A DNA stretch of 64,000 nucleotides from an uncultured Gammaproteobacteria bacterium (GCA_964406935.1 CAYOTM010000001.1:11092-75091); one strand, 5' to 3'; numbered from the stretch's first letter, positions 1-18,521 are shown. Translations and numbers: made by a program. Notes: generated by a model not told the origin, from the letters alone.

Positions 1-309
1 AGCGGTGGCAACTGGTTGTTCGAGAAAAAAATAAGGTTTTTTATTAGCACTAGTTTGAAAAACTTTAAATAAACTATAGTTAACCGAATTGGCAACTTCT
101 TCAATTTTAGCATCTTGACTAACCACTACCTTGCGAGCATCTCGAATAATTAAATTAGAGCGATCATCAAGCAAATCAAACTCCCGAGTTAAAGTGAAGC
201 CGGCTAAATCTTGATTAAAATAAACATAAGCAATAATTTGCCCTGCTAAACCAGCGGCTAAACCAAAGAAAATAGCTAATAAAATTGTTAAAAAAAGTGG
301 ATTCTTCAT
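1..309 (-). CDS. N-terminal part of a membrane-anchored protein of unknown function; gene continues past the window start
   Basis: Reverse-strand ATG at 307-309 gives MKNPLFLTILLAIFFGLAAGLAG... (one N-terminal TM helix, then a soluble segment) and stays open to position 1. Absent from the ORF track because it is truncated. Confidence 0.35.
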   Translation of the reverse strand, partial: MKNPLFLTILLAIFFGLAAGLAGQIIAYVYFNQDLAGFTLTREFDLLDDRSNLIIRDARKVVVSQDAKIEEVANSVNYSLFKVFQTSANKKPYFFLEQPVATA

Positions 310-313
310 AAAT

Positions 314-1123
314 TTATAACCAGCGAGCGCTTAATAAAATAATTAAACTAGCGATTGCCGGAAAAGCAATAAACCATTTTAAACGTCGCCCTTTTAATTC
401 CCCGCTTAAACTAAAGCGAGTTAAATTAATCGCGGCATAAAAAATAATCGATAATAATAAGCCAGAAACTGAATAATTAAACGGCAAAAAGAAAAAGATT
501 ACTCCCAATTGCCAGATTGCCCAGGCCACCACCAACCAAAAAAAACGTTGATCAGGTCGTTCAAATAAACCGCTAACATTAGCGGCCGCTAAAGTTAAGG
601 AAAAAACGGCGATTGCTAATAAAAATAAAACTGGAAAAAACCCTAAACTTAAAAACGATTTAACCGCGAATAAGGAGGCACTACTTAAAAATAAAGCTAA
701 AAAATTAACGTATAAAGCTACGCCAATAAAAATATAATCAAAGCTCCGACTACTAAAAAGATCTAAAATATTTTGATTAATTGGTTTTGGCGATAAACGA
801 TGAAAAACTAAACGCCAATATTGATAAATAATAAAAGTAGAAATCAAAATTAAAATCTGAATAGTTAAGCGATTAACTAATAAGGAAGTAAAAACCAGGC
901 TACTAAGAGAAAAAATAGTAGGAACAATCACTAGTAAATAACGAGGCCAGATTGGTTTTTGCCAACCAGGAAGTAGATAAACATTAAATAAATTAATTAA
1001 AATAATAACAAGTAGCGACCAACCAAGCAATTTTGGCCAAAAAAAGATTACTTGAAAAATCAACCAAAAAATTAAGGCCGGCGAATAAACAACTAAATGA
1101 AAACTGCTATTTTTCATAACCAA
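314..1123 (-). CDS. polytopic integral membrane protein, unknown function
   Basis: 269 aa with 7-8 hydrophobic Trp-rich helices. Packed 3 bp after the lipoprotein gene and 5 bp before the next gene, so same operon. Confidence 0.5.
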   Translation of the reverse strand: MVMKNSSFHLVVYSPALIFWLIFQVIFFWPKLLGWSLLVIILINLFNVYLLPGWQKPIWPRYLLVIVPTIFSLSSLVFTSLLVNRLTIQILILISTFIIYQYWRLVFHRLSPKPINQNILDLFSSRSFDYIFIGVALYVNFLALFLSSASLFAVKSFLSLGFFPVLFLLAIAVFSLTLAAANVSGLFERPDQRFFWLVVAWAIWQLGVIFFFLPFNYSVSGLLLSIIFYAAINLTRFSLSGELKGRRLKWFIAFPAIASLIILLSARWL

Positions 1124-9009: not shown

Positions 9010-11637
9010 ATGTTCAATAAATTTACCGATAAATCACAGGAGGCGATTATTAATGCCCAAGTAATTGCTAGCAATTTTGGCCAAGCTAGCATTGAAGCCA
9101 TCCACTTATTATTATCTCTCTTGCAACAAAATGAAGGCCTAGTAAAGCCTGTTTTGGAAAAATTAAAAATTGACCCCGAGGTAGTGGAAACTTATGCTCT
9201 AGATGAAATTAAAAAATTACCCAGCAGTGAAATTACTCGACCCAGTGGTCCGATTCAGGCTGTCTCTGGAAACAATGAAACCGCCCTGGTTTTAGAAAGA
9301 TCAAAAAAAGAATCCGACGGCATGGGCGATGAATTTATTTCCACCGAACACATTTTCTTAGCTTTAATTGGCATCAAGTCAGCTGCCCAACAAATTCTTC
9401 TAAATTTTAAAGTGGAGTATCAAGAGGTAAAAACTATTCTTCAAGAATTACGCGGTGACGCTAAAATTACTGACCCCTTCCCTGAAACTAAATTCAAAGT
9501 TTTAGAAAAATATACCACTAACTTAACTGGACTAGCTCGTCAAGAAAAACTTGACCCAGTAGTTGGTCGCGACACCGAAATTAGACGCTTAATGCAAGTT
9601 TTACTTCGACGGACTAAAAATAATCCAGTCTTAATTGGTGAGGCGGGCACAGGAAAAACAGCGATTGTTGAAGGCTTAGCTCAAAGAATTGTTGATGGTG
9701 ACGTCCCAGAAAATTTAAAAAATAAAGAAATCATTACTCTTGATTTAGGATCTTTAGTGGCCGGCGCGAAATTTCGGGGCGAATTTGAAGATCGTTTAAA
9801 GGCAGTCCTTAAAGAAGTTCAAAGCCAGCAAGGAAAAATTATTTTATTTATTGATGAGCTCCATACTTTAATCGGCACCGGGGCTTCAGAAGGATCAATG
9901 GATGCTTCTAATATGTTAAAACCGGCCTTGGCCCGAGGTGAGCTTCGAACTATTGGCGCCACCACCACCAAGGAATATCAAAAATATATCGAAAAAGATG
10001 CTGCTCTGGAGCGCCGCTTTCAACCAGTTTTTGTAGCTGAGCCAAATATTGAAGATACCACTAATATGCTTCGCGGCTTAAAAGAAAAATATGAAGTTCA
10101 TCATGGAGTACACATTACTGACGATGCGTTAGTAGCGGCCGCTAAATTATCGGATCGCTACATTGCTGATCGCTTTTTACCCGATAAGGCCGTTGATTTA
10201 ATTGATGAAGCAACTTCTTCTCTGCGAATGGAAATTGATTCCATGCCCGATGAACTAGACCAGCTAAAAAGAAAGATCAAACAACTAGAGATCAACAAAG
10301 CAGCTTTATTATCAACTAACAAAAAAACTGTTAAGTTAAAAACAATTAATCAAGAATTAGCTAAAATTAAGGAGCGGGCCAAACAACTCGAACTTCACTG
10401 GACTAATGAAAAAAATATTATTTCCGATATTCGTCTCAAAAAGAAAGAGATTGAAGAATTACGTATTAAAGCAGAAATTGCCCAACGACAAGGCAGTGAT
10501 TTAACTGAAGTGGCCAAAATTAAATATGCCCTGATTCCAGAACTGGAAACCAGTATTAATAAACTTCAAGCTGATTTATTAAAAATTCAAAAGAAGGGTC
10601 AACGAATCTTAAAAGAAGAGGTTGATGAAGAAGATATTGCCAAAGTAGTTTCTCGCTGGACCGGAATTCCGGTTAACAAAATGTTAGCCGATGAAATTAA
10701 AAAATTATCCACCGCTGAAACTGAACTCCAGGCAGAAGTGATTGGCCAAGATGAAGCAATTGCCTCAATTGCTAAGGCCTTAAGACGCTCTCGCGCCGGC
10801 ATTAATGAAGAACAACGACCAATTGGCTCCTTCTTATTTATTGGTCCGACTGGTGTAGGAAAAACCGAACTAGCTAAAACCCTCACTCGCTTTATTTTTA
10901 ATGATGAAAGCGCAATGATTCGTTTAGATATGAGCGAATATATGGAAAAACATTCCGTCGCTAAATTAATTGGCTCCCCGCCCGGCTATATTGGCCATGA
11001 TGAAGGTGGCCAATTAACCGAAAAAGTCAGACGTCATCCTTACAGTGTGCTCTTGTTTGACGAAATTGAAAAAGCGCACCCCGATATGTTTAATATGCTC
11101 CTACAAATTCTCGATGATGGTCGTTTAACTGACTCCAAAGGACGAGTGGTGAACTTTAAAAATACCATTATTATTATGACCTCGAACTTAGGCAATGAAA
11201 TTATTAAACAATACTCCATTGGTTTTAGTGGCGATGAGGAAGTGTCTCTTGGCCGTGACAAGGAAATGCGAGAAAAGATTGACAAACTTTTACGTCAGCA
11301 TTTTAAATTAGAATTTATTAACCGAATCGATGAAATCGTTTTGTTTAAAAGTCTTAGCCCGGAATCTTTAGAAAAAATTGTTGATCTGGAACTAGCTAAA
11401 GTCGAGAAGCGCCTCCATAATAAAAATATTAGTCTCAAGGTTCACCAAAAAGTGAAAAAAATGTTAGCTGAAAAAGGCTATGATATTAGTTATGGCGTCA
11501 GACCCTTAAAACGAATTATTAAAACAGCTATTTTAGATGAACTAGCCAGTAAAATTATTGAAGGCAAAATTAAAGAAGGCCAAAAAGTGAAAATCGATGT
11601 TGGCCAAGAAGATAAAGTTGTCATGACGGCTGTTTAA
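9010..11637 (+). CDS. clpB: ATP-dependent chaperone ClpB
   Basis: 875 aa with a Clp_N domain, NBD1 ([27 protein letters not shown]), a long M-domain coiled coil, and NBD2 ([18 protein letters not shown]). Confidence 0.9.
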
Positions 11638-11690
11638 ATAAATGAGATTTACTTACCGATCGAAAAATCCCAATAAATAATTAGCCATTA

Positions 11691-11717
11691 GCCCCACTAG
11701 CATAGTGGGGCTTTATT
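11691..11717 (+). terminator. rho-independent terminator after clpB
   Basis: GCCCCACTA-gca-TAGTGGGGC followed by TTTATT. Confidence 0.6.
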
Positions 11718-11748
11718 AACGTTTAAAAAAATATTAATTAGTCTAGGT

Positions 11749-11777
11749 TTGTGAATTAAACCAAAATATACTATAAT
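11749..11777 (+). promoter_or_regulatory. sigma70-type promoter candidate
   Basis: TTGTGA, 17-bp spacer, TATAAT, ending 25 bp upstream of the ATG at 11802. Confidence 0.35.
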
Positions 11778-11801
11778 AGAGCTACTAAATACTTTAAAAT
11801 T

Positions 11802-13292
11802 ATGTTGAAAAAATTATTAATTGTTTTCCCAATTTTACTAATTATTATTAGTTTAAATGGAACTCGGGCGAAAGCTCAGATTGACCCTAATTTTGATCCT
11901 AATTTCATTATTAGTGACGAGGAAATGCTCAATTGGAGTAGTCTAACTTTATCAGAAATTCAAGCCTTCCTAGAAAGTAAAAATAGTTATCTGGCTACTT
12001 ATCAAACAATCAATGCTTATGGCACCCTAAAAACCGCCGCCGAAATTATTTATGAGGCAGCTGTGGCTAATTATGACTGCAAAGATGTAGAGATAGATGA
12101 AACCACCACGGAAGCGGAAAGACAACTTAAATGTCAACGAATTACTACTATTAATCCTAAAGTTCTACTGGTTCTTCTTCAAAAAGAATCTAGTTTAATT
12201 GAAAATCCTAACCCGATAGAAAGACTGCTTGATCAAGCTACTGGCTATGGTTGCCCAGATAGCGGTGGCTGCAATCCTCGCTTCGCTGGCTTTGGCAAAC
12301 AAGTCAACAGTGCCGCCCTGCAATTTTTAGCCTACCTACAAACTCCCTTAAGATATCCTTATAAAGCCGGGGTTGCCTATATTTTCAACAATCCTTATGG
12401 CACCATCTCTCAAGATACCTTAATGGTTGTCCCCACCAATCAAGCAACCGCCGCTCTCTACAACTACACTCCTCATGTTTTTAATGGCAACTATAACTTT
12501 TGGCGGGTTTATAATCGCTATTTCCCAGAAAGTGTTAATCATCGATTAGCTCGCTATCCTGACGGCTCACTCCTAAGAGCTGCCGGGGAACCCGGTGTCT
12601 GGTTAATTCAACGAGGTCAAAAACGACCCTTCTTAAGTTGGAGTTCCTTAACTTCCCGCTATAACCCCAATCGTATTTTAGTGGTTGATAAAATTGAATT
12701 AGAGGCCTATCCTAAAGGCGCTCCAATTAAATATCCAAACTATTCATTACTGAGATCGCCAATGGGTAATCTTTACTTAATTGTTGGTGATCAAAAAAGA
12801 TTATTTGTTAATCAAGAGGTATTTCGTAGTTTTGGTTTTCACCCCGACGAAATTATTGATGCTTCTCTCCAAGATTTAAACTATTACCAAGATGGTGAGG
12901 CAATTACCGCTGACTCAAGTTATTTAACGGGCGCTCTCCTTCAAGATCCTCAGAGCGGTGGCGTTTTCTATGTTCATGATAAATATAAAGCCCCCCTCAT
13001 TGACCGGGTATTTTTAACTACTAAATTCAAAAATGAAATAGTTAAAAAGGCAACAATTGAAGAATTGGCCAAATATGAAAAAATTAGTCCCGTCTTATTT
13101 GATGACGGCGAGCTCTTAAAATCCAGTACAGTTAGCACTGTTTATTTAATATCTAATGGCCAAAAACGAGCCTTTACTACCGGTCAAGTCTTTGAAAGTT
13201 TGGGTTATCAGTGGGCCAACATTATTGAAGTGTCGCCCCAACTCTTATCTCTTTATCCTTTTGGTGATTTAATTACTGATCAACATAATTAA
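11802..13292 (+). CDS. secreted protein with four ~50-aa tandem repeats (putative cell-envelope-binding modules)
   Basis: Signal peptide MLKKLLIVFPILLIIISLNGTRAKA. C-terminal half carries repeats of the pattern YLI.nGqKR.F.s..vF.S.G......i..vs...L..Yp.G..I. Confidence 0.55.
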   Translation: MLKKLLIVFPILLIIISLNGTRAKAQIDPNFDPNFIISDEEMLNWSSLTLSEIQAFLESKNSYLATYQTINAYGTLKTAAEIIYEAAVANYDCKDVEIDETTTEAERQLKCQRITTINPKVLLVLLQKESSLIENPNPIERLLDQATGYGCPDSGGCNPRFAGFGKQVNSAALQFLAYLQTPLRYPYKAGVAYIFNNPYGTISQDTLMVVPTNQATAALYNYTPHVFNGNYNFWRVYNRYFPESVNHRLARYPDGSLLRAAGEPGVWLIQRGQKRPFLSWSSLTSRYNPNRILVVDKIELEAYPKGAPIKYPNYSLLRSPMGNLYLIVGDQKRLFVNQEVFRSFGFHPDEIIDASLQDLNYYQDGEAITADSSYLTGALLQDPQSGGVFYVHDKYKAPLIDRVFLTTKFKNEIVKKATIEELAKYEKISPVLFDDGELLKSSTVSTVYLISNGQKRAFTTGQVFESLGYQWANIIEVSPQLLSLYPFGDLITDQHN

Positions 13293-15078: not shown

Positions 15079-15708
15079 TTATTTAATATTTTTAGATTTT
15101 TTTCGTCGATGTTTCAAAATAGTAAAACTAAGTACAAAGAAGAAAGTAAAAATTAATAACCAAAAAATTTCCTGATAATAGCGGCGCAATTGTTCATCAT
15201 GAGCCCCAAAAAAATAACCTAAAGCGGCCAAAACACTGCTCCAAATAAAAGCGCCTAAAAAAGTATAACCAACAAAAGGCAAAATTTTCATTTTAGCAAA
15301 ACCAGCTGGCAAAGAATTCAGCTGACGAACAATCGGTACTAAACGACCAAAAAAAGTAGAGGCGGCTTCATATTTAACAAAAAAACTCTCAGCTCGTTGA
15401 ATTTTTTCCTCAGTAATTAATAAAAATTTAGCCACTTTGGTTCTAACTAAGCGATAAACAATCGGGCGCCCTAAATAACGAGCTAGAAAGTAATTAATTA
15501 AAGCCCCCACTAAACTTCCGAGGGAGGAAGCAAGAATAATCAACCAAATATTTAGCTTTCCTTGAGCAGCTAAATAAGCAGCCGGGGGGACAACAATTTC
15601 TGAAGGAAAAGGAATAAAAGAACTTTCAATTACCATTAAGAAAAAGACCCCCCAATAATTAACGGTGGCAAAAAAATTTAAGAAGGCATCAAATAATTCC
15701 AGTATCAT
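15079..15708 (-). CDS. DedA/SNARE-associated family membrane protein
   Basis: VFFLMVIESSFIPFPSEIVVPPAAYLAA plus 4-5 TM helices; typical DedA. Confidence 0.8.
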   Translation of the reverse strand: MILELFDAFLNFFATVNYWGVFFLMVIESSFIPFPSEIVVPPAAYLAAQGKLNIWLIILASSLGSLVGALINYFLARYLGRPIVYRLVRTKVAKFLLITEEKIQRAESFFVKYEAASTFFGRLVPIVRQLNSLPAGFAKMKILPFVGYTFLGAFIWSSVLAALGYFFGAHDEQLRRYYQEIFWLLIFTFFFVLSFTILKHRRKKSKNIK

Positions 15709-16740: not shown

Positions 16741-16815
16741 GGCCCCTTCGTCTATTGGTTAGGACGTCTGGTTCTCAGCCAGGAAAGACGGGTTCGATTC
16801 CCGTAGGGGCTACCA
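16741..16815 (+). tRNA. tRNA-Glu (anticodon CUC) with encoded CCA
   Basis: Manual cloverleaf: acceptor GGCCCCT/AGGGGCT, D-arm GTCT..GGAC, anticodon stem TCTGG/CCAGG with loop TTCTCAG, T-arm ACGGG-TTCGATT-CCCGT, then CCA. Confidence 0.75.
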
Positions 16816-16835
16816 AATAAAAATATATAAGGAAG
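16797..16835 (+). repeat. 39-bp direct repeat copy 1 (tRNA-Glu 3' end plus 20 bp of flank)
   Basis: ATTCCCGTAGGGGCTACCAAATAAAAATATATAAGGAAG; exact second copy at 17016-17054. Confidence 0.85.
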
Positions 16836-17015
16836 TTATAATATTTTTATTAGGTCGACGTTAGTCGATGGGAATCGAACAGGTTGCAAGCGAGTCTTGA
16901 GCGAGAGCGGAAGACCGAGCGAAAAGGAGAGCGCCGGACGAAGCTCCGGGGGAGCTTCGGACGCCAACCCTGGACAAGTGAGCGAGCCGCATTATGGCGG
17001 CGAGTGAGCGCGATA
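16836..17015 (+). other. 180-bp insert between the direct repeats: 17 bp AT-rich plus about 163 bp GC-rich (~60% GC) with internal hairpins; candidate integration remnant or structured ncRNA
   Basis: Sharp GC jump relative to the ~33% background. Hairpins TCGAC-gtta-GTCGA and GAAGCTCC-ggg-GGAGCTTC. GAGCGAG-type internal repeats. Bracketed by copies of the tRNA 3' end. Confidence 0.3.
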
Positions 17016-17054
17016 ATTCCCGTAGGGGCTACCAAATAAAAATATATAAGGAAG
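17016..17054 (+). repeat. 39-bp direct repeat copy 2
   Basis: Exact copy of 16797-16835; followed by a C8T8 homopolymer tract at 17069-17084. Confidence 0.85.
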
Positions 17055-17121
17055 AAGCAAGCACGATACCCCCCCCTTTTTTTTAATAACTACTTAATAA
17101 AAATAAAAAATAATTAACTAT

Positions 17122-17243: not shown

Positions 17244-18521
17244 CTAAGATGATAACTGTTTTTGAGAAATAGTTAATAGTTGTCCGACTTTAATTTTTGA
17301 TTTTTCTTCAGCGGTAATTTTAAAAGATAAAGGAAAATAAAATTCACTCCGAGAACGAATCACACTTCCCTGAATATCTTCCACAATTACCGTAAATTGA
17401 GAAAACTTCTTAAATATTTGAGCCTGATATTTAGCTTCTAGATCTAAAGACAAACTTCTTAATTCAAGAGACCTGTCTTTTTTTATTTTAGCAGAAACTT
17501 GATTGACCAAACTAAAAGCCGGAGTTTTAGGATGGGCTGAGAAAGGAAAAACATGAACTTTGCTAAAAGCAATTTTCTTAGCCAATTGATAGGTTTTTTT
17601 AAAATCAGCCGCAGTTTCTCCGGGAAAGCCAACAATAATATCAGTACTTAGGGCAATCTCGGGCATTAATTGACGAATTTTTTTCACCCGATCTTGAAAA
17701 TATTTTACTGAATAAGGACGCTTCATCGCCTGTAAAATTTGGTCACTGCCTGATTGCAAGGAAATATGAAGATGGCGACACAAACGACCACGAGAACTGG
17801 CTATTAACTTTAACAACTGATCATCGACCTCATTAATTTCAATCGAACTTAAACGAAAACGAGCCCCAGGAACTTCCTTTAGTAATTGTTTAAGTAAACC
17901 AACTAAATTAACTTTTTTCTTGACTGATTTGAAGTCTTGTCCATAACGACCTAGGTGAATCCCACACAAAACAATTTCTTGCCAACCATTCTTAGAAGCC
18001 TCTTTAGCTTCTTTAATTATCTCTTGAGACAAGCGACTACTCAGCCTTCCCCGGGCATAAGGAATAATACAATAAGTACAAAATTGATTACAGCCATCAG
18101 CAATTTTTAAAAAATAACGAGCCTTATCATTCGATACTAAATCATATGACGAATTTAAACCCTTAACTGACCAAAGAGGACTTGATTTTTTCTTAGTTAA
18201 ATTTAATAAATGACGACTCAGGGAAATTAAATTGCCAGTTTCCCAAACCAGATCGACTGGCAATTTTTTAGCCTCCGGATAAGTAGCTGGCCAGCAACCA
18301 AAAATCGCTATCTTAGCTTGAGGATGTTTTTTTTGTAAAAATTTCCAGACCTGCCTATCCTTACGAATGGCTGTCTGAGTCACCGCGCAAGTATTAATAA
18401 TTAACCATTCAGGATTTACTTGATTTTCTTGCCAACCCCGTTTTAACAGTAATTTCTTTAAATAAGAAGAGTCGTATTGATTTACTTTGCAGCCTAAAGT
18501 TTTAATTAAAAATTGAGACAT
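17244..18521 (-). CDS. radical-SAM methylthiotransferase of the MiaB/RimO/MtaB family (second paralog; MtaB- or RimO-like)
   Basis: N-terminal MTTase domain (KTLGCKVNQYDS), radical-SAM CNQFCTYCIIPYARG, C-terminal TRAM-like region. Confidence 0.8.
   Translation of the reverse strand: MSQFLIKTLGCKVNQYDSSYLKKLLLKRGWQENQVNPEWLIINTCAVTQTAIRKDRQVWKFLQKKHPQAKIAIFGCWPATYPEAKKLPVDLVWETGNLISLSRHLLNLTKKKSSPLWSVKGLNSSYDLVSNDKARYFLKIADGCNQFCTYCIIPYARGRLSSRLSQEIIKEAKEASKNGWQEIVLCGIHLGRYGQDFKSVKKKVNLVGLLKQLLKEVPGARFRLSSIEINEVDDQLLKLIASSRGRLCRHLHISLQSGSDQILQAMKRPYSVKYFQDRVKKIRQLMPEIALSTDIIVGFPGETAADFKKTYQLAKKIAFSKVHVFPFSAHPKTPAFSLVNQVSAKIKKDRSLELRSLSLDLEAKYQAQIFKKFSQFTVIVEDIQGSVIRSRSEFYFPLSFKITAEEKSKIKVGQLLTISQKQLSS

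What the first reader, a model, noticed from the sequence alone, without database searches (positions are those of the whole stretch)
16741..17090. tRNA-Glu 3' end duplicated as a 39-bp direct repeat bracketing a 180-bp GC-rich structured insert
The last 19 nt of tRNA-Glu(CUC) including CCA, plus the next 20 bp, recur exactly 219 bp downstream (16797-16835 and 17016-17054). Between the copies lie 17 bp of AT-rich sequence and about 163 bp at ~60% GC, roughly double the genomic background. That segment holds strong hairpins (GAAGCTCC-ggg-GGAGCTTC; TCGAC-gtta-GTCGA) and GAGCGAG-type internal repeats. Duplicating a tRNA 3' end is the classic scar of integrase-mediated insertion (attL/attR), yet the bracketed segment is far too small to encode anything. 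It is therefore either the decayed remnant of an integrative element or a small structured RNA or miniature element that targets the tRNA 3' end. A C8T8 homopolymer follows copy 2 (17069-17084).
Basis: seen in the sequence. Interest (0 to 1): 0.6.

Follow-up and report, generated by a model that had tools for sequence, protein, structure and literature searches.

The report
Structured RNA cassette at tRNA tails
The GC-rich insert after tRNA-Glu is not a dead integration scar but an intact copy of a previously undescribed, strongly folded ~150-nt non-coding element. The element is widespread in Patescibacteria (CPR), always sits behind a tRNA gene, carries a copy of that tRNA's tail, and comes and goes between related genomes.

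Summary
tRNA-Glu(CUC) lies at 16741-16815. An exact 39-bp repeat lies at 16797-16835 and 17016-17054. Between the copies are 163 bp at 61% GC, in a 36% GC window.

The insert is not a decayed scar. It is an intact copy (168.7 bits) of a conserved ~150-nt structured element, "E". I found about 40 copies in Patescibacteria (CPR) contigs. Rfam 15 has no match.

Each copy lies 40-50 nt after a terminator hairpin. That hairpin usually follows a tRNA gene (Glu, Trp, Gly, Arg, Ala, Cys) or another copy, on the same strand. Nearly every copy ends with a copy of the tRNA from T-loop nucleotide 58 to its 3' end. The first nucleotides of that copy pair with the element's 5' end.

41 of 49 base pairs show compensatory changes. 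Tandem G.A pairs, a conserved U.G pair and GNRA loops point to a + strand RNA.

Related genomes show filled and empty sites bounded by the repeat, tandem arrays, and copies flanking accessory-gene cassettes. No recombinase is consistently linked.

Best reading: a non-autonomous, RNA-structured cassette that enters and leaves tRNA 3' ends by recombination across the tRNA-tail repeat. The RNA's function is unknown.

The parts
16741..16815 (+). tRNA-Glu(CUC), intact, CCA encoded. It is the host gene of the element.
   Evidence: ARAGORN; Rfam tRNA, 55.6 bits. The fmt-tRNA-Glu synteny is kept in 13 CPR relatives.
16797..16835 (+). Repeat copy 1 ('O1'): tRNA nucleotides 58-76 plus 20 nt of 3' flank.
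   Evidence: Exact 39-nt repeat. Across the family the repeat starts at tRNA nucleotide 58, or 56 in one copy.
16812..16855 (+). AT-only hairpin directly after the tRNA (arms 16812-16826 and 16841-16855, 14 of 15 paired). In other copies this position holds a hairpin followed by a T run.
   Evidence: Inverted repeat I7. Every family copy is preceded by an A-tract/hairpin/T-tract.
16837..16842 (+). TATAAT hexamer, a possible -10 box for independent transcription of the element (inferred only).
   Evidence: Read from the sequence. Not reported by the two-hexamer promoter scan. TA-rich hexamers sit at a similar position in most copies.
16855..16868 (+). Leader hairpin TCGAC-GTTA-GTCGA. It is variable and not always present in other copies.
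   Evidence: L010 has CGGC-GTTA-GCCG with one compensatory pair.
16869..17022 (+). Element core 'E'. Helices: P1 16869-16877 with 17011-13 and 17017-22 (3-nt bulge TAA 17014-16); P2 16882-87 with 16964-69; P2b 16890-94 with 16928-32; P3/P3a 16895-16927; P4 16935-63; P5 16978-17009. Conserved joiners: AACA 16878-81 and CTGGACAA 16970-77.
   Evidence: Covariance model hit, 168.7 bits, E = 4e-55. Structure and covariation. Coordinates checked. In this copy two pairs of P3a and single pairs in P2 and P2b are not standard (read).
17016..17054 (+). Repeat copy 2 ('O2'). Its first 7 nt (ATTCCCG) form the 3' strand of P1. The rest repeats the acceptor 3' strand, ACCA and 20 nt of flank.
   Evidence: the outer P1 pair columns co-vary with the T stem of the tRNA.
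17048..17084 (-). Terminator-like hairpin (17078-17048, using G.U pairs on the minus strand) of the convergent MiaB-like radical-SAM gene at 17244-18521. It contains most of the C8T8 run (17069-17084). It is native flank, not part of the element.
   Evidence: Terminator scan; Pfam.

Best explanation
The 219-bp unit is one copy of a new family of non-coding, RNA-structured cassettes found at tRNA 3' ends in Patescibacteria. The unit consists of an AT-rich hairpin and leader, the ~150-nt GC-rich core E, and a copy of the tRNA tail.

Shown:
1. E is a conserved multi-helix fold: P1, P2, P2b, P3/P3a, P4 and P5, arranged around two three-way junctions.
2. E lies on the tRNA's strand, after a terminator hairpin that usually follows a tRNA gene or another copy.
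3. In nearly all copies the 3' end of E runs into a copy ('O') of the tRNA from T-loop nucleotide 58 to the 3' end. The first 7-9 nt of O form the closing helix P1 with the 5' end of E.
4. The unit is present or absent between related genomes, with junctions exactly at O. It forms tandem arrays, and copies bracket accessory-gene cassettes.
5. No recombinase, transposase or reverse transcriptase gene travels with it.

Inferred:
1. The unit is gained and lost by Campbell-type recombination of a small circle (E-O-hairpin-leader) with the O segment of a tRNA gene, or with a resident E-O. The enzyme is supplied in trans, or homologous recombination does it. This duplicates O and leaves the tRNA gene intact. 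The window's 39-bp repeat would be the whole stretch shared by the circle and the site.
2. E is transcribed with or just after the tRNA and folds as an RNA. Its conservation reflects a role in its own maintenance or spread, or a cellular role that I could not identify.
For: Family and structure
- L010 carries a homologous insert after its own tRNA-Glu.
- A motif scan of JGI metagenomes gave 30 real loci. The covariance model finds 39 copies in the loci held at that point, and two more in an unbiased sample of four further CPR genomes, including the 977-kb NCBI record CP066698.1.
- It finds none in 63 non-CPR fmt loci covering 768 kb.
- RNAalifold on a plain MAFFT alignment gives 23 of 32 pairs with compensatory changes.
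- On my 49-pair structure, 86.6% of cells are paired, against 31-40% when partners are slid. 41 pairs have double changes. 0 of 500 shuffles reach the observed values on four of five measures, 10 of 500 on the fifth.

Strand and RNA character
- Tandem G.A pairs are conserved in 30-34 of 36 copies.
- A U.G pair is conserved in 25 of 36 copies.
- P3a carries a GNRA loop in at least 23 of 36 copies.

tRNA link
- Host tRNAs are Glu, Trp, Gly, Arg, Ala/Pro and Cys.
- The repeat starts at nucleotide 58 (56 once). It ends at the tRNA 3' end (17-20 nt) or includes the terminator (39, 49, and at least 68 and 73 nt in arrays).
- The P1 5' strand changes together with the T stem: GAGAGAAT/ATTCTCTC in L082, GGACTCG/CGAGTCC in L093, GGGAGT/ACTCCC in L098.

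Mobility
- L006 (empty) versus L096 (filled): 86% identical flanks and an insert of about 200 bp bounded by O.
- Tandem arrays occur in L091, L092, L099, L103, L106 and L111. Cassettes with LRR, Fic/DOC, CYTH, NYN and type ISP restriction-modification genes lie between copies.
- E identity is not congruent with fmt identity. L010 and L103 share 0.71 in fmt but 0.61 in E. The window and L103 share 0.63 in fmt but 0.75 in E.
- Occupancy at the fmt-tRNA-Glu locus is patchy: 2 of 13 species representatives and 2 of 4 further genomes.

No linked enzyme
- Among 142 ORFs within 4 kb, no recombinase, reverse transcriptase or transposase family appears among the 25 families that most ORFs match.
- Forty ORFs next to copies or inside the cassettes were scanned one by one. 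Only one is a recombinase: a large serine recombinase in L096.
Against: - No circular form, excision event or recombinase has been seen.
- No empty-site allele exists for the window's own lineage. The nearest other Fmt is only 62% identical.
- The element is absent from IMG/VR, INPHARED phages and PLSDB plasmids, so no vehicle is known.
- Recombination across only 17-20 nt is inefficient without a dedicated enzyme.
- The repeat's left edge does not contain a complete T-loop overlap region, as a T-loop-class tyrosine integrase site would.
- Presence/absence could also be explained by loss through O x O deletion of a vertically inherited gene.
- Expression as RNA is untested.
- The metagenome pattern fixed GAATCGAAC, GGACAA and GCGATAATTC. 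The invariance of those blocks and the predominance of tRNA-Glu are therefore partly imposed by the search. Copies found only by the model vary there.
Confidence: 0.6

Rival explanations
1. Resident small-RNA gene. E is a vertically inherited sRNA transcribed with the tRNA (a structured 3' trailer RNA). The tRNA-tail copy is simply part of the RNA (closing helix plus 3' tail) and is kept similar to the neighbouring tRNA by gene conversion. Patchy distribution reflects loss, and arrays reflect unequal crossing-over.
For: E is always on the tRNA strand, behind a terminator-like hairpin, and followed by its own hairpin and T run. P1 is conserved in cis even where the neighbouring tRNA differs (L088, L112). 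Overall E divergence (0.6-0.75) is similar to that of fmt DNA. No mobility gene is linked.
Against: Copy number ranges from 0 to at least 3 per short contig, and different subfamilies sit side by side (L087, L092). Copies occur away from any tRNA, at the ends of accessory-gene cassettes (L087b and c, L105, L092-L098). A clean filled/empty pair has unrelated terminators on the two sides of the unit. E similarity is incongruent with host similarity. The acceptor part of O decays freely in some copies (L100, L109, L087c, L116), so it is not needed in the RNA.
Confidence: 0.2
2. RNA-guided or RNA-mediated mobile element. E-O works like a scaffold with a flank-derived 3' guide (as in TnpB omega-RNA or Cas12 crRNA), together with a 12-nt 5' segment antisense to the T arm. 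Alternatively it is a SINE-like template copied into a nick in the T loop. In either case an enzyme encoded elsewhere inserts it at tRNA genes.
For: The layout is a conserved ~150-nt scaffold followed by about 19 nt identical to the target. The 5' GGGGAATCGAAC is the exact reverse complement of tRNA nucleotides 53-65, and it changes with the tRNA. CGAAC is kept although it has no partner inside E. The repeat has a fixed left edge in the T loop and a variable right edge of 17-49 nt, as with imprecise second-strand cleavage. The fold has RNA hallmarks.
Against: No nuclease, recombinase or reverse transcriptase is linked. The variable part of the 5' segment is fully explained by pairing in cis with O (P1). 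It follows the element's own O rather than the neighbour's T arm in L088 and L112. CGAAC could serve tertiary structure. The majority type has a 3-nt insertion (TAA) relative to the target at the junction.
Confidence: 0.12
3. Folded single-stranded DNA recombination site. E is the equivalent of an integron attC site (or a CTX-phage-type folded attP). It marks the 3' end of gene cassettes that a host-encoded recombinase inserts at tRNA tails.
For: Copies sit at cassette ends in the same orientation, in arrays anchored at a fixed platform, the tRNA. The closing helix has a conserved extrahelical 3-nt bulge. No recombinase lies in cis, as in attC clusters that lack an integrase. Sheared G.A pairs and GNA/GNRA loops are also stable in DNA (established knowledge).
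Against: E is a branched five-helix fold with long invariant single-stranded joiners, not one imperfect hairpin with conserved structure only. There is no RYYYAAC/GTTRRRY core pair. Most copies carry no gene at all. Cassette genes point both ways.
Confidence: 0.08
4. Simple decayed scar of an integrase-borne island (attL/attR around a remnant), or an assembly artefact.
For: A direct repeat of a tRNA 3' segment is the classical signature. The same tRNA-Glu is a real integrase target in a relative: L117 has a tyrosine integrase and a 7.5-kb island between 44-bp repeats.
Against: The remnant would not be conserved with compensatory changes across dozens of genomes. The bona fide island repeat starts at the anticodon loop, not at nucleotide 58. 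The repeat is supported by three further runs.
Confidence: 0.02

Closest known systems
tRNA-gene-targeting integrative elements and their integrase-less derivatives (cis-mobilizable elements, CIMEs, flanked by att sites)
   Same: The element is bracketed by a direct repeat of the tRNA's 3' segment. The tRNA gene stays intact. Related genomes show filled and empty sites, tandem accretion and accessory cargo between repeats.
   Different: The unit is only about 200 bp, has no coding capacity and no integrase in cis. The bracketed DNA is a conserved folded RNA-like domain rather than AT-rich arm sites. The repeat starts at T-loop nucleotide 58 without a full overlap region. The same family serves at least six tRNA identities.
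Integron attC sites, cassette arrays and CALINs
   Same: Structured repeats lie at the 3' end of cassettes, in arrays in one orientation, with accessory genes, and the recombinase may be elsewhere. The closing helix has an extrahelical bulge.
   Different: E has a branched multi-helix fold with conserved sequence and no R/L boxes. It is anchored at tRNA genes, and each copy ends in a tRNA-tail copy. Many units are empty. No IntI was seen.
Transposon-borne guide RNAs (TnpB/IscB omega-RNA; IS110 bridge RNA)
   Same: A structured scaffold of about 150-200 nt is joined to a segment that matches the DNA next to the element. Segments are complementary to both strands of the target.
   Different: No tnpB, iscB or IS110 recombinase gene is adjacent. 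There is no Rfam hit to the known scaffolds. The target-matching segments also pair with each other (P1), which is sufficient to explain their co-variation.
tRNA-linked structured RNAs: 3' external-transcribed-spacer sRNAs, and the tRNA-adjacent GOLLD and ROOL RNAs
   Same: A structured RNA is encoded next to or behind tRNA genes, is often in mobile contexts, and has an unknown function.
   Different: Size, sequence and fold are unrelated (no Rfam match). None of them ends in a duplicated tRNA tail that forms part of its own closing helix.
SINEs and R2-type site-specific retroelements
   Same: Non-autonomous, linked to tRNA sequence, possibly co-transcribed with the host gene, with a variable-length target duplication.
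   Different: This is a bacterial element. Only 19 nt are tRNA-derived. No reverse transcriptase partner is known.

Membership tests
Integrase-mediated tRNA integration scar (attL/attR) | Direct repeat made of the 3' part of the tRNA gene, with the tRNA left intact | tested here: met
   39-bp exact repeat starting at tRNA nucleotide 58.
Integrase-mediated tRNA integration scar (attL/attR) | Tyrosine (or serine) integrase gene inside the bracketed DNA or next to an att site | tested here: not met
   The bracket is 180 bp. The window neighbours are def, fmt, a MiaB-like gene, PHP, dnaB and recR. No such family is among the 25 most-matched for 142 neighbouring ORFs. One large serine recombinase among 40 ORFs scanned individually.
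Integrase-mediated tRNA integration scar (attL/attR) | Empty-site allele in relatives | tested here: met
   Met for the family: L006 versus L096. Not found for the window's own lineage.
Integrase-mediated tRNA integration scar (attL/attR) | Repeat contains the crossover (overlap) segment flanked by the symmetric stem arms (anticodon-loop or T-loop class) | tested here: not met
   The second copy reads GCGATA|ATTCC. The T loop TTCGATT and the 5' stem arm are not repeated. A true island in L117 repeats 44 bp from the anticodon loop.
Any Rfam 15 RNA family | Covariance-model match | tested here: not met
   No family reaches its gathering score, and nothing better than E = 0.79 on the insert alone.
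Structured non-coding RNA (generic) | Conserved secondary structure supported by compensatory changes | tested here: met
   41 of 49 pairs; 86.6% paired versus 31-40% when slid; 0 of 500 shuffles on four of five measures. The MAFFT-only alignment gives 23 of 32 pairs.
Structured non-coding RNA (generic) | Discrete transcript | not testable with these tools
   No expression data. Only strand-specific G.A, U.G and GNRA features and flanking hairpin/T-run sites.
Integron attC | Single imperfect hairpin with R''/R' (RYYYAAC/GTTRRRY) and L boxes; structure conserved but not sequence | tested here: not met
   Five-helix branched fold with invariant joiners. There is no GTTRRRY at the 3' end.
Integron attC | Integron integrase in the array or genome | tested here: inconclusive
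   None seen within 4 kb of the copies in about 27 loci. Whole genomes were not available.
TnpB/IscB omega-RNA or IS110 bridge RNA | Encoded within or next to the nuclease or recombinase gene of the same element | tested here: not met
   The neighbours are tRNAs, housekeeping genes or assorted accessory genes.
MITE | Terminal inverted repeats and a fixed-length target-site duplication | tested here: not met
   The duplication is 17, 18, 19, 20, 39 or 49 nt, or at least 68 nt. The ends are not inverted repeats of each other apart from P1.

The most novel reading that the evidence does not exclude
E-O is the RNA component of a new kind of tRNA-targeted mobile element that needs no gene of its own. 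It would be a ~150-nt scaffold whose 5' 12-mer (antisense to T-arm nucleotides 53-65) and 3' tail (identical to nucleotides 58-76) programme insertion at the T loop of a chosen tRNA gene. Insertion would use a trans-encoded enzyme (guide-RNA-like or bridge-RNA-like) or target-primed reverse transcription (a bacterial SINE). Alternatively, E is itself a ribozyme that processes or mobilises the unit.
Probability: 0.15. Interest if true: 0.9.

Novelty: new variant of a known kind. Interest (0 to 1): 0.72.

Why it matters
- It adds a well-supported structured RNA class, with dozens of members and heavy covariation, that is absent from Rfam. It occurs in a huge and poorly understood bacterial radiation where almost no non-coding RNAs are known.
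- Its architecture is unusual: the closing helix is built from a duplicated piece of the neighbouring tRNA gene.
- The same repeats organise small accessory and defence-type gene cassettes behind tRNA genes without any integrase in cis. This may be a route of gene exchange in CPR bacteria.
- If the RNA directs its own insertion, it would be a compact programmable targeting system.
- Practically, the element breaks short-read assemblies at tRNA genes, and it should be masked or annotated in CPR genomes.

Tried and rejected
- Rfam at permissive thresholds on 5 kb, on the insert alone, and on the whole window: only the three tRNAs.
- Other copies in the window: none, by BLAST and by the covariance model with filters off. 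The other two tRNAs have no tail repeats.
- Viral contigs with four patterns: nothing real. The single hit, L113, fails the model.
- INPHARED phages and PLSDB plasmids by blastn: no match.
- Protein coding in the insert: rejected. The ORFs of 43-61 aa lie in a region whose variation is helix-compensatory, with hairpin length changes that are not multiples of three.
- tRNA, tmRNA or permuted tRNA on either strand: ARAGORN is negative. The T-loop-like GTTCGATTC on the minus strand has no stem.
- Group II intron domain V, RNase P, SRP, 6S, known ribozymes and omega-RNA families: no Rfam signal.
- Linked enzyme: a Pfam census of 142 ORFs plus 40 ORFs scanned individually gave no shared family.
- Empty-site allele of the window's own lineage: not obtainable. 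Only the same strain and a 99.8% variant exist, and both carry the repeat.
- Identity of the 'X' peptide: the query is too short for the protein search, and Pfam finds nothing.
- Literature: five searches found no description of such an element (paper checked).

Full report
**1. Observation**

tRNA-Glu(CUC) lies at 16741-16815 with an encoded CCA. One exact 39-nt direct repeat occupies 16797-16835 and 17016-17054. It begins at tRNA nucleotide 58 in the T loop and ends 20 nt past the CCA. Chance expectation for such a pair in this window is about 1e-13.

Between the copies lie 17 nt of pure A+T and 163 nt at 61.3% GC. The window is 35.7% GC, and this is its strongest GC island. The named hairpins and the C8T8 run are present.

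Logan contigs from three other runs end inside the repeat on the expected sides, 30, 30 and 29 nt in. One of them is a 99.77% strain variant. A k=31 graph does this when the 39-mer has two contexts, so the duplication is real.

**2. Context**

The neighbours are housekeeping genes: a LigB-family gene, def, a VTT-domain gene, fmt, tRNA-Glu, the insert, a convergent MiaB-like radical-SAM gene, tRNA-Lys, a PHP-domain gene, tRNA-Thr, dnaB and recR.

The best Fmt relatives, at most 62% identical, are Patescibacteria/CPR MAGs such as Falkowbacteria and Saccharimonadales. The fmt-tRNA-Glu order is kept in 13 of them.

The C8T8 run belongs to a terminator-like hairpin of the convergent minus-strand gene. 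It is not part of the element.

**3. The insert has homologues**

L010, a species-level relative with 55% Fmt identity, has a GC-rich segment after its own tRNA-Glu. The segment aligns with the window's insert at both ends and finishes with a copy of that genome's own tRNA tail.

A motif taken from the two sequences found 31 metagenome loci. One of them, L083, is a chance hit in 60%-GC coding DNA.

A covariance model built from 26 distinct copies finds 39 real copies in the loci held at that point. Some of these were not selected by the motif. It finds two more in four further CPR genomes fetched through Fmt homologues, including the 977-kb NCBI record CP066698.1. It finds none in 63 non-CPR fmt loci and only one in the window. 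Rfam 15 has no matching family.

**4. Anatomy**

The core, "E", is about 150 nt long. In the window its parts are:
- P1: 16869-77 paired with 17011-13 and 17017-22, with a 3-nt bulge.
- Joiner AACA.
- P2: 16882-87 with 16964-69.
- P2b, enclosing P3 and the hairpin P3a.
- P4: 16935-63.
- Joiner CUGGACAA.
- P5: 16978-17009.

A plain MAFFT alignment already gives 23 of 32 RNAalifold pairs with compensatory changes. On 36 copies and my 49-pair structure, 86.6% of cells are standard pairs, against 31-40% when partners are slid by 1-3 columns. 41 pairs show changes on both sides. No shuffle out of 500 reaches the observed values on four of five measures.

Other features:
- A U.G pair at the base of P5 is kept in 25 of 36 copies.
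- P3a ends in a GNRA loop in at least 23 of 36 copies.
- These features exist only on the + strand and are typical of RNA.
- Folded single-stranded DNA is not excluded.

The window copy has two non-standard pairs in P3a and one each in P2 and P2b.

**5. Relation to the tRNA**

Every copy follows an A-tract/hairpin/T-tract. That hairpin in turn follows a tRNA 3' end, another copy's tail, a gene end, or a second kind of repeat ("X"). Nearly every copy is followed by a tRNA-tail copy "O" and usually another such hairpin.

Host tRNAs include Glu(CUC and UUC), Trp, Gly, Arg, Ala/Pro and Cys. O starts at nucleotide 58 (56 in L093). It matches the neighbour exactly for 17-20 nt, up to the tRNA end. 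In some copies the match includes the terminator: window 39, L082 49, and at least 68 and 73 nt in arrays.

The 5' strand of P1 is the reverse complement of the T-loop and T-stem part of O, and it changes with it (L082, L093, L098). Where the neighbour's T arm differs from the element's own O (L088, L112), P1 follows its own O. Pairing in cis is therefore the conserved feature. The acceptor part of O decays or carries insertions in some copies (L100, L109, L087c, L116), so it looks like a by-product rather than part of the functional fold.

**6. Behaviour**

- L006 and L096 share 76-86% identical flanks and differ by an insert of about 200 bp whose ends fall in O. The unit's own hairpin follows the tRNA, and the native flank follows O2.
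- Tandem arrays are common (L091, L092, L099, L103, L106, L111).
- In L087, two near-identical copies bracket a 2-kb cassette, and a third subfamily copy follows. Cassettes hold LRR, Fic/DOC, CYTH, NYN, glycosyltransferase and type ISP restriction-modification genes.
- Element similarity does not follow host similarity.
- Occupancy of the orthologous locus is patchy.

**7. No linked enzyme**

No recombinase, transposase or reverse transcriptase family appears among the 25 families most often matched by 142 ORFs within 4 kb. Of 40 ORFs next to copies or inside cassettes that were scanned one by one, only one is a recombinase, a large serine recombinase in L096.

For comparison, L117 shows what a classical event looks like at the same tRNA-Glu. 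A tyrosine integrase gene and a 7.5-kb island lie between 44-bp repeats that start at the anticodon loop. L119 keeps a decayed copy of that 44-mer. The window's arrangement differs in where the repeat starts, in size and in content.

**8. Mechanism**

The shown items are those in sections 4 to 7. The following is inferred.

The unit moves as a small circle (E-O-hairpin-leader) that recombines with O of a tRNA gene or with a resident E-O. This duplicates O and preserves the tRNA. When circle and site come from the same population, the shared stretch is longer, which would explain 39 and 49 bp. When the unit arrives in a new species, only the conserved tRNA tail is shared, which would explain 17-20 bp.

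The catalyst is unknown. It could be a trans-acting recombinase or homologous recombination. The purpose of the RNA fold is not established. I rate this overall reading at 0.6.

**9. Rivals**

- A resident sRNA gene with gene conversion and loss (0.2).
- An RNA-guided or retro-type mobile element (0.12).
- A folded single-stranded DNA site of attC type (0.08).
- A decayed scar or an artefact (0.02).

**10. Comparison and novelty**

The closest known kinds are:
- Integrase-less derivatives of tRNA-targeting islands (CIMEs).
- Integron attC arrays.
- Transposon guide RNAs.
- tRNA-adjacent structured RNAs.

Each shares some traits and fails at least one defining feature (see the membership table). 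Five full-text searches found no description of such an element.

I file it as a new variant of a known kind: a tRNA-tail integrative element that is miniature, non-coding and built around a conserved RNA fold. I give a 0.15 chance that it is mechanistically new.

**11. Limits**

- The metagenome motif fixed three sequence blocks and a TTCGATT-type T loop. This inflates their apparent invariance and the share of tRNA-Glu.
- Alignment A5 was fitted to a model structure.
- Taxon labels of several MAGs ("Gammaproteobacteria") conflict with their CPR-like gene content.
- No expression data, circles or whole-genome counts were available.

Noticed in passing
L006 8983-9057, 9906-9980, 10799-10870; L097 1851-1925, 4592-4654, 7718-7786; L092 140-214, 1747-1818; L093 13680-13754; L095 818-892; L098 3356-3424; L105 2330-2401; L112 1365-1439; L011 8930-9001; L005 2313-2381: A second repeat, 'X'. 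It is about 75 nt, AT-rich, and ends in a tRNA-Glu-like ..TAAGACTAC followed by a terminator hairpin. On the opposite strand it reads as a conserved peptide, VVLKSxISQNFxxIIGEIEKWxEIL*, with synonymous-type variation, but it is not part of a full ORF. It separates accessory-gene cassettes downstream of tRNA-Glu and often precedes an E copy. It may be the C-terminal relic of a gene split by integration, or a recombination arm. It is not present in the window.
   Followed up: partly
L117 10931-18576: A classical island at the same tRNA-Glu in a 911-kb CPR contig. A tyrosine integrase gene (11075-12118, minus strand) lies directly after the tRNA. The cargo includes NERD and RelA/SpoT genes. The island is bounded by a 44-bp exact repeat running from the anticodon loop to the tRNA 3' end. 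L119 (about 15095-15138) keeps a decayed copy of the same 44-mer.
   Followed up: partly
L088 (and the identical L101), upstream of E at 253-421 (minus strand): The tRNA-Trp-like gene next to this copy has an aberrant T arm (GCAGG-GGCGGCA-CCTGC, with no TTC), and ARAGORN does not call it. The element's own tail keeps the canonical ATTCCCTC T-arm half.
   Followed up: no
L096 2194-3750: A 519-aa large serine recombinase (Resolvase, Recombinase and Zn_ribbon_recom domains) converges on the E-O unit. Its ORF runs through the native flank into the antisense of O and E. It is the only recombinase among the individually scanned neighbours.
   Followed up: no
window 17048-17084: The C8T8 run is the G8A8 side of a minus-strand terminator-like hairpin (12 pairs, using G.U) for the convergent MiaB-like gene. 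Its other arm overlaps the last bases of repeat copy 2.
   Followed up: yes
L100 2640-2700; L109 8344-8360 (minus strand); L119 11014-11182; L116 11255-11271: Tail copies decay in different ways. L100 has a 24-nt insertion inside the tail. L109 has lost it. The L119 copy ends exactly at the E|O boundary (GCGA|) and continues into unrelated DNA. L116 has GGGAATAC in place of GGGACTAC.
   Followed up: partly
L011 7060-7090: After the tRNA-Glu terminator, L011 has ATCATGATCAAGTTAAAGAATCAAATAG. This resembles the leader and start of E in L103 and L104 (GTCATGGTCGAGTTAGGGAATCGAACTG), but no element follows. It may be the stump of a lost copy.
   Followed up: no
L007 end; L001, L114 and L115 ends: Contigs of several assemblies stop inside the element or its repeat. 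The element is a recurrent cause of assembly breaks at tRNA genes in CPR bins.
   Followed up: yes
window 11802-13292; L010 2221-3759; L116 6304-7794; L117 5589-7079: A conserved protein of about 500 aa with no Pfam match belongs to the conserved gene order upstream of the LigB-family gene, def and fmt in these CPR genomes.
   Followed up: no
L008-L011, L013 (record titles): MAGs titled 'uncultured Gammaproteobacteria bacterium' have 32-42% GC, CPR-type synteny and Fmt closest to Patescibacteria. The taxon labels look wrong.
   Followed up: no
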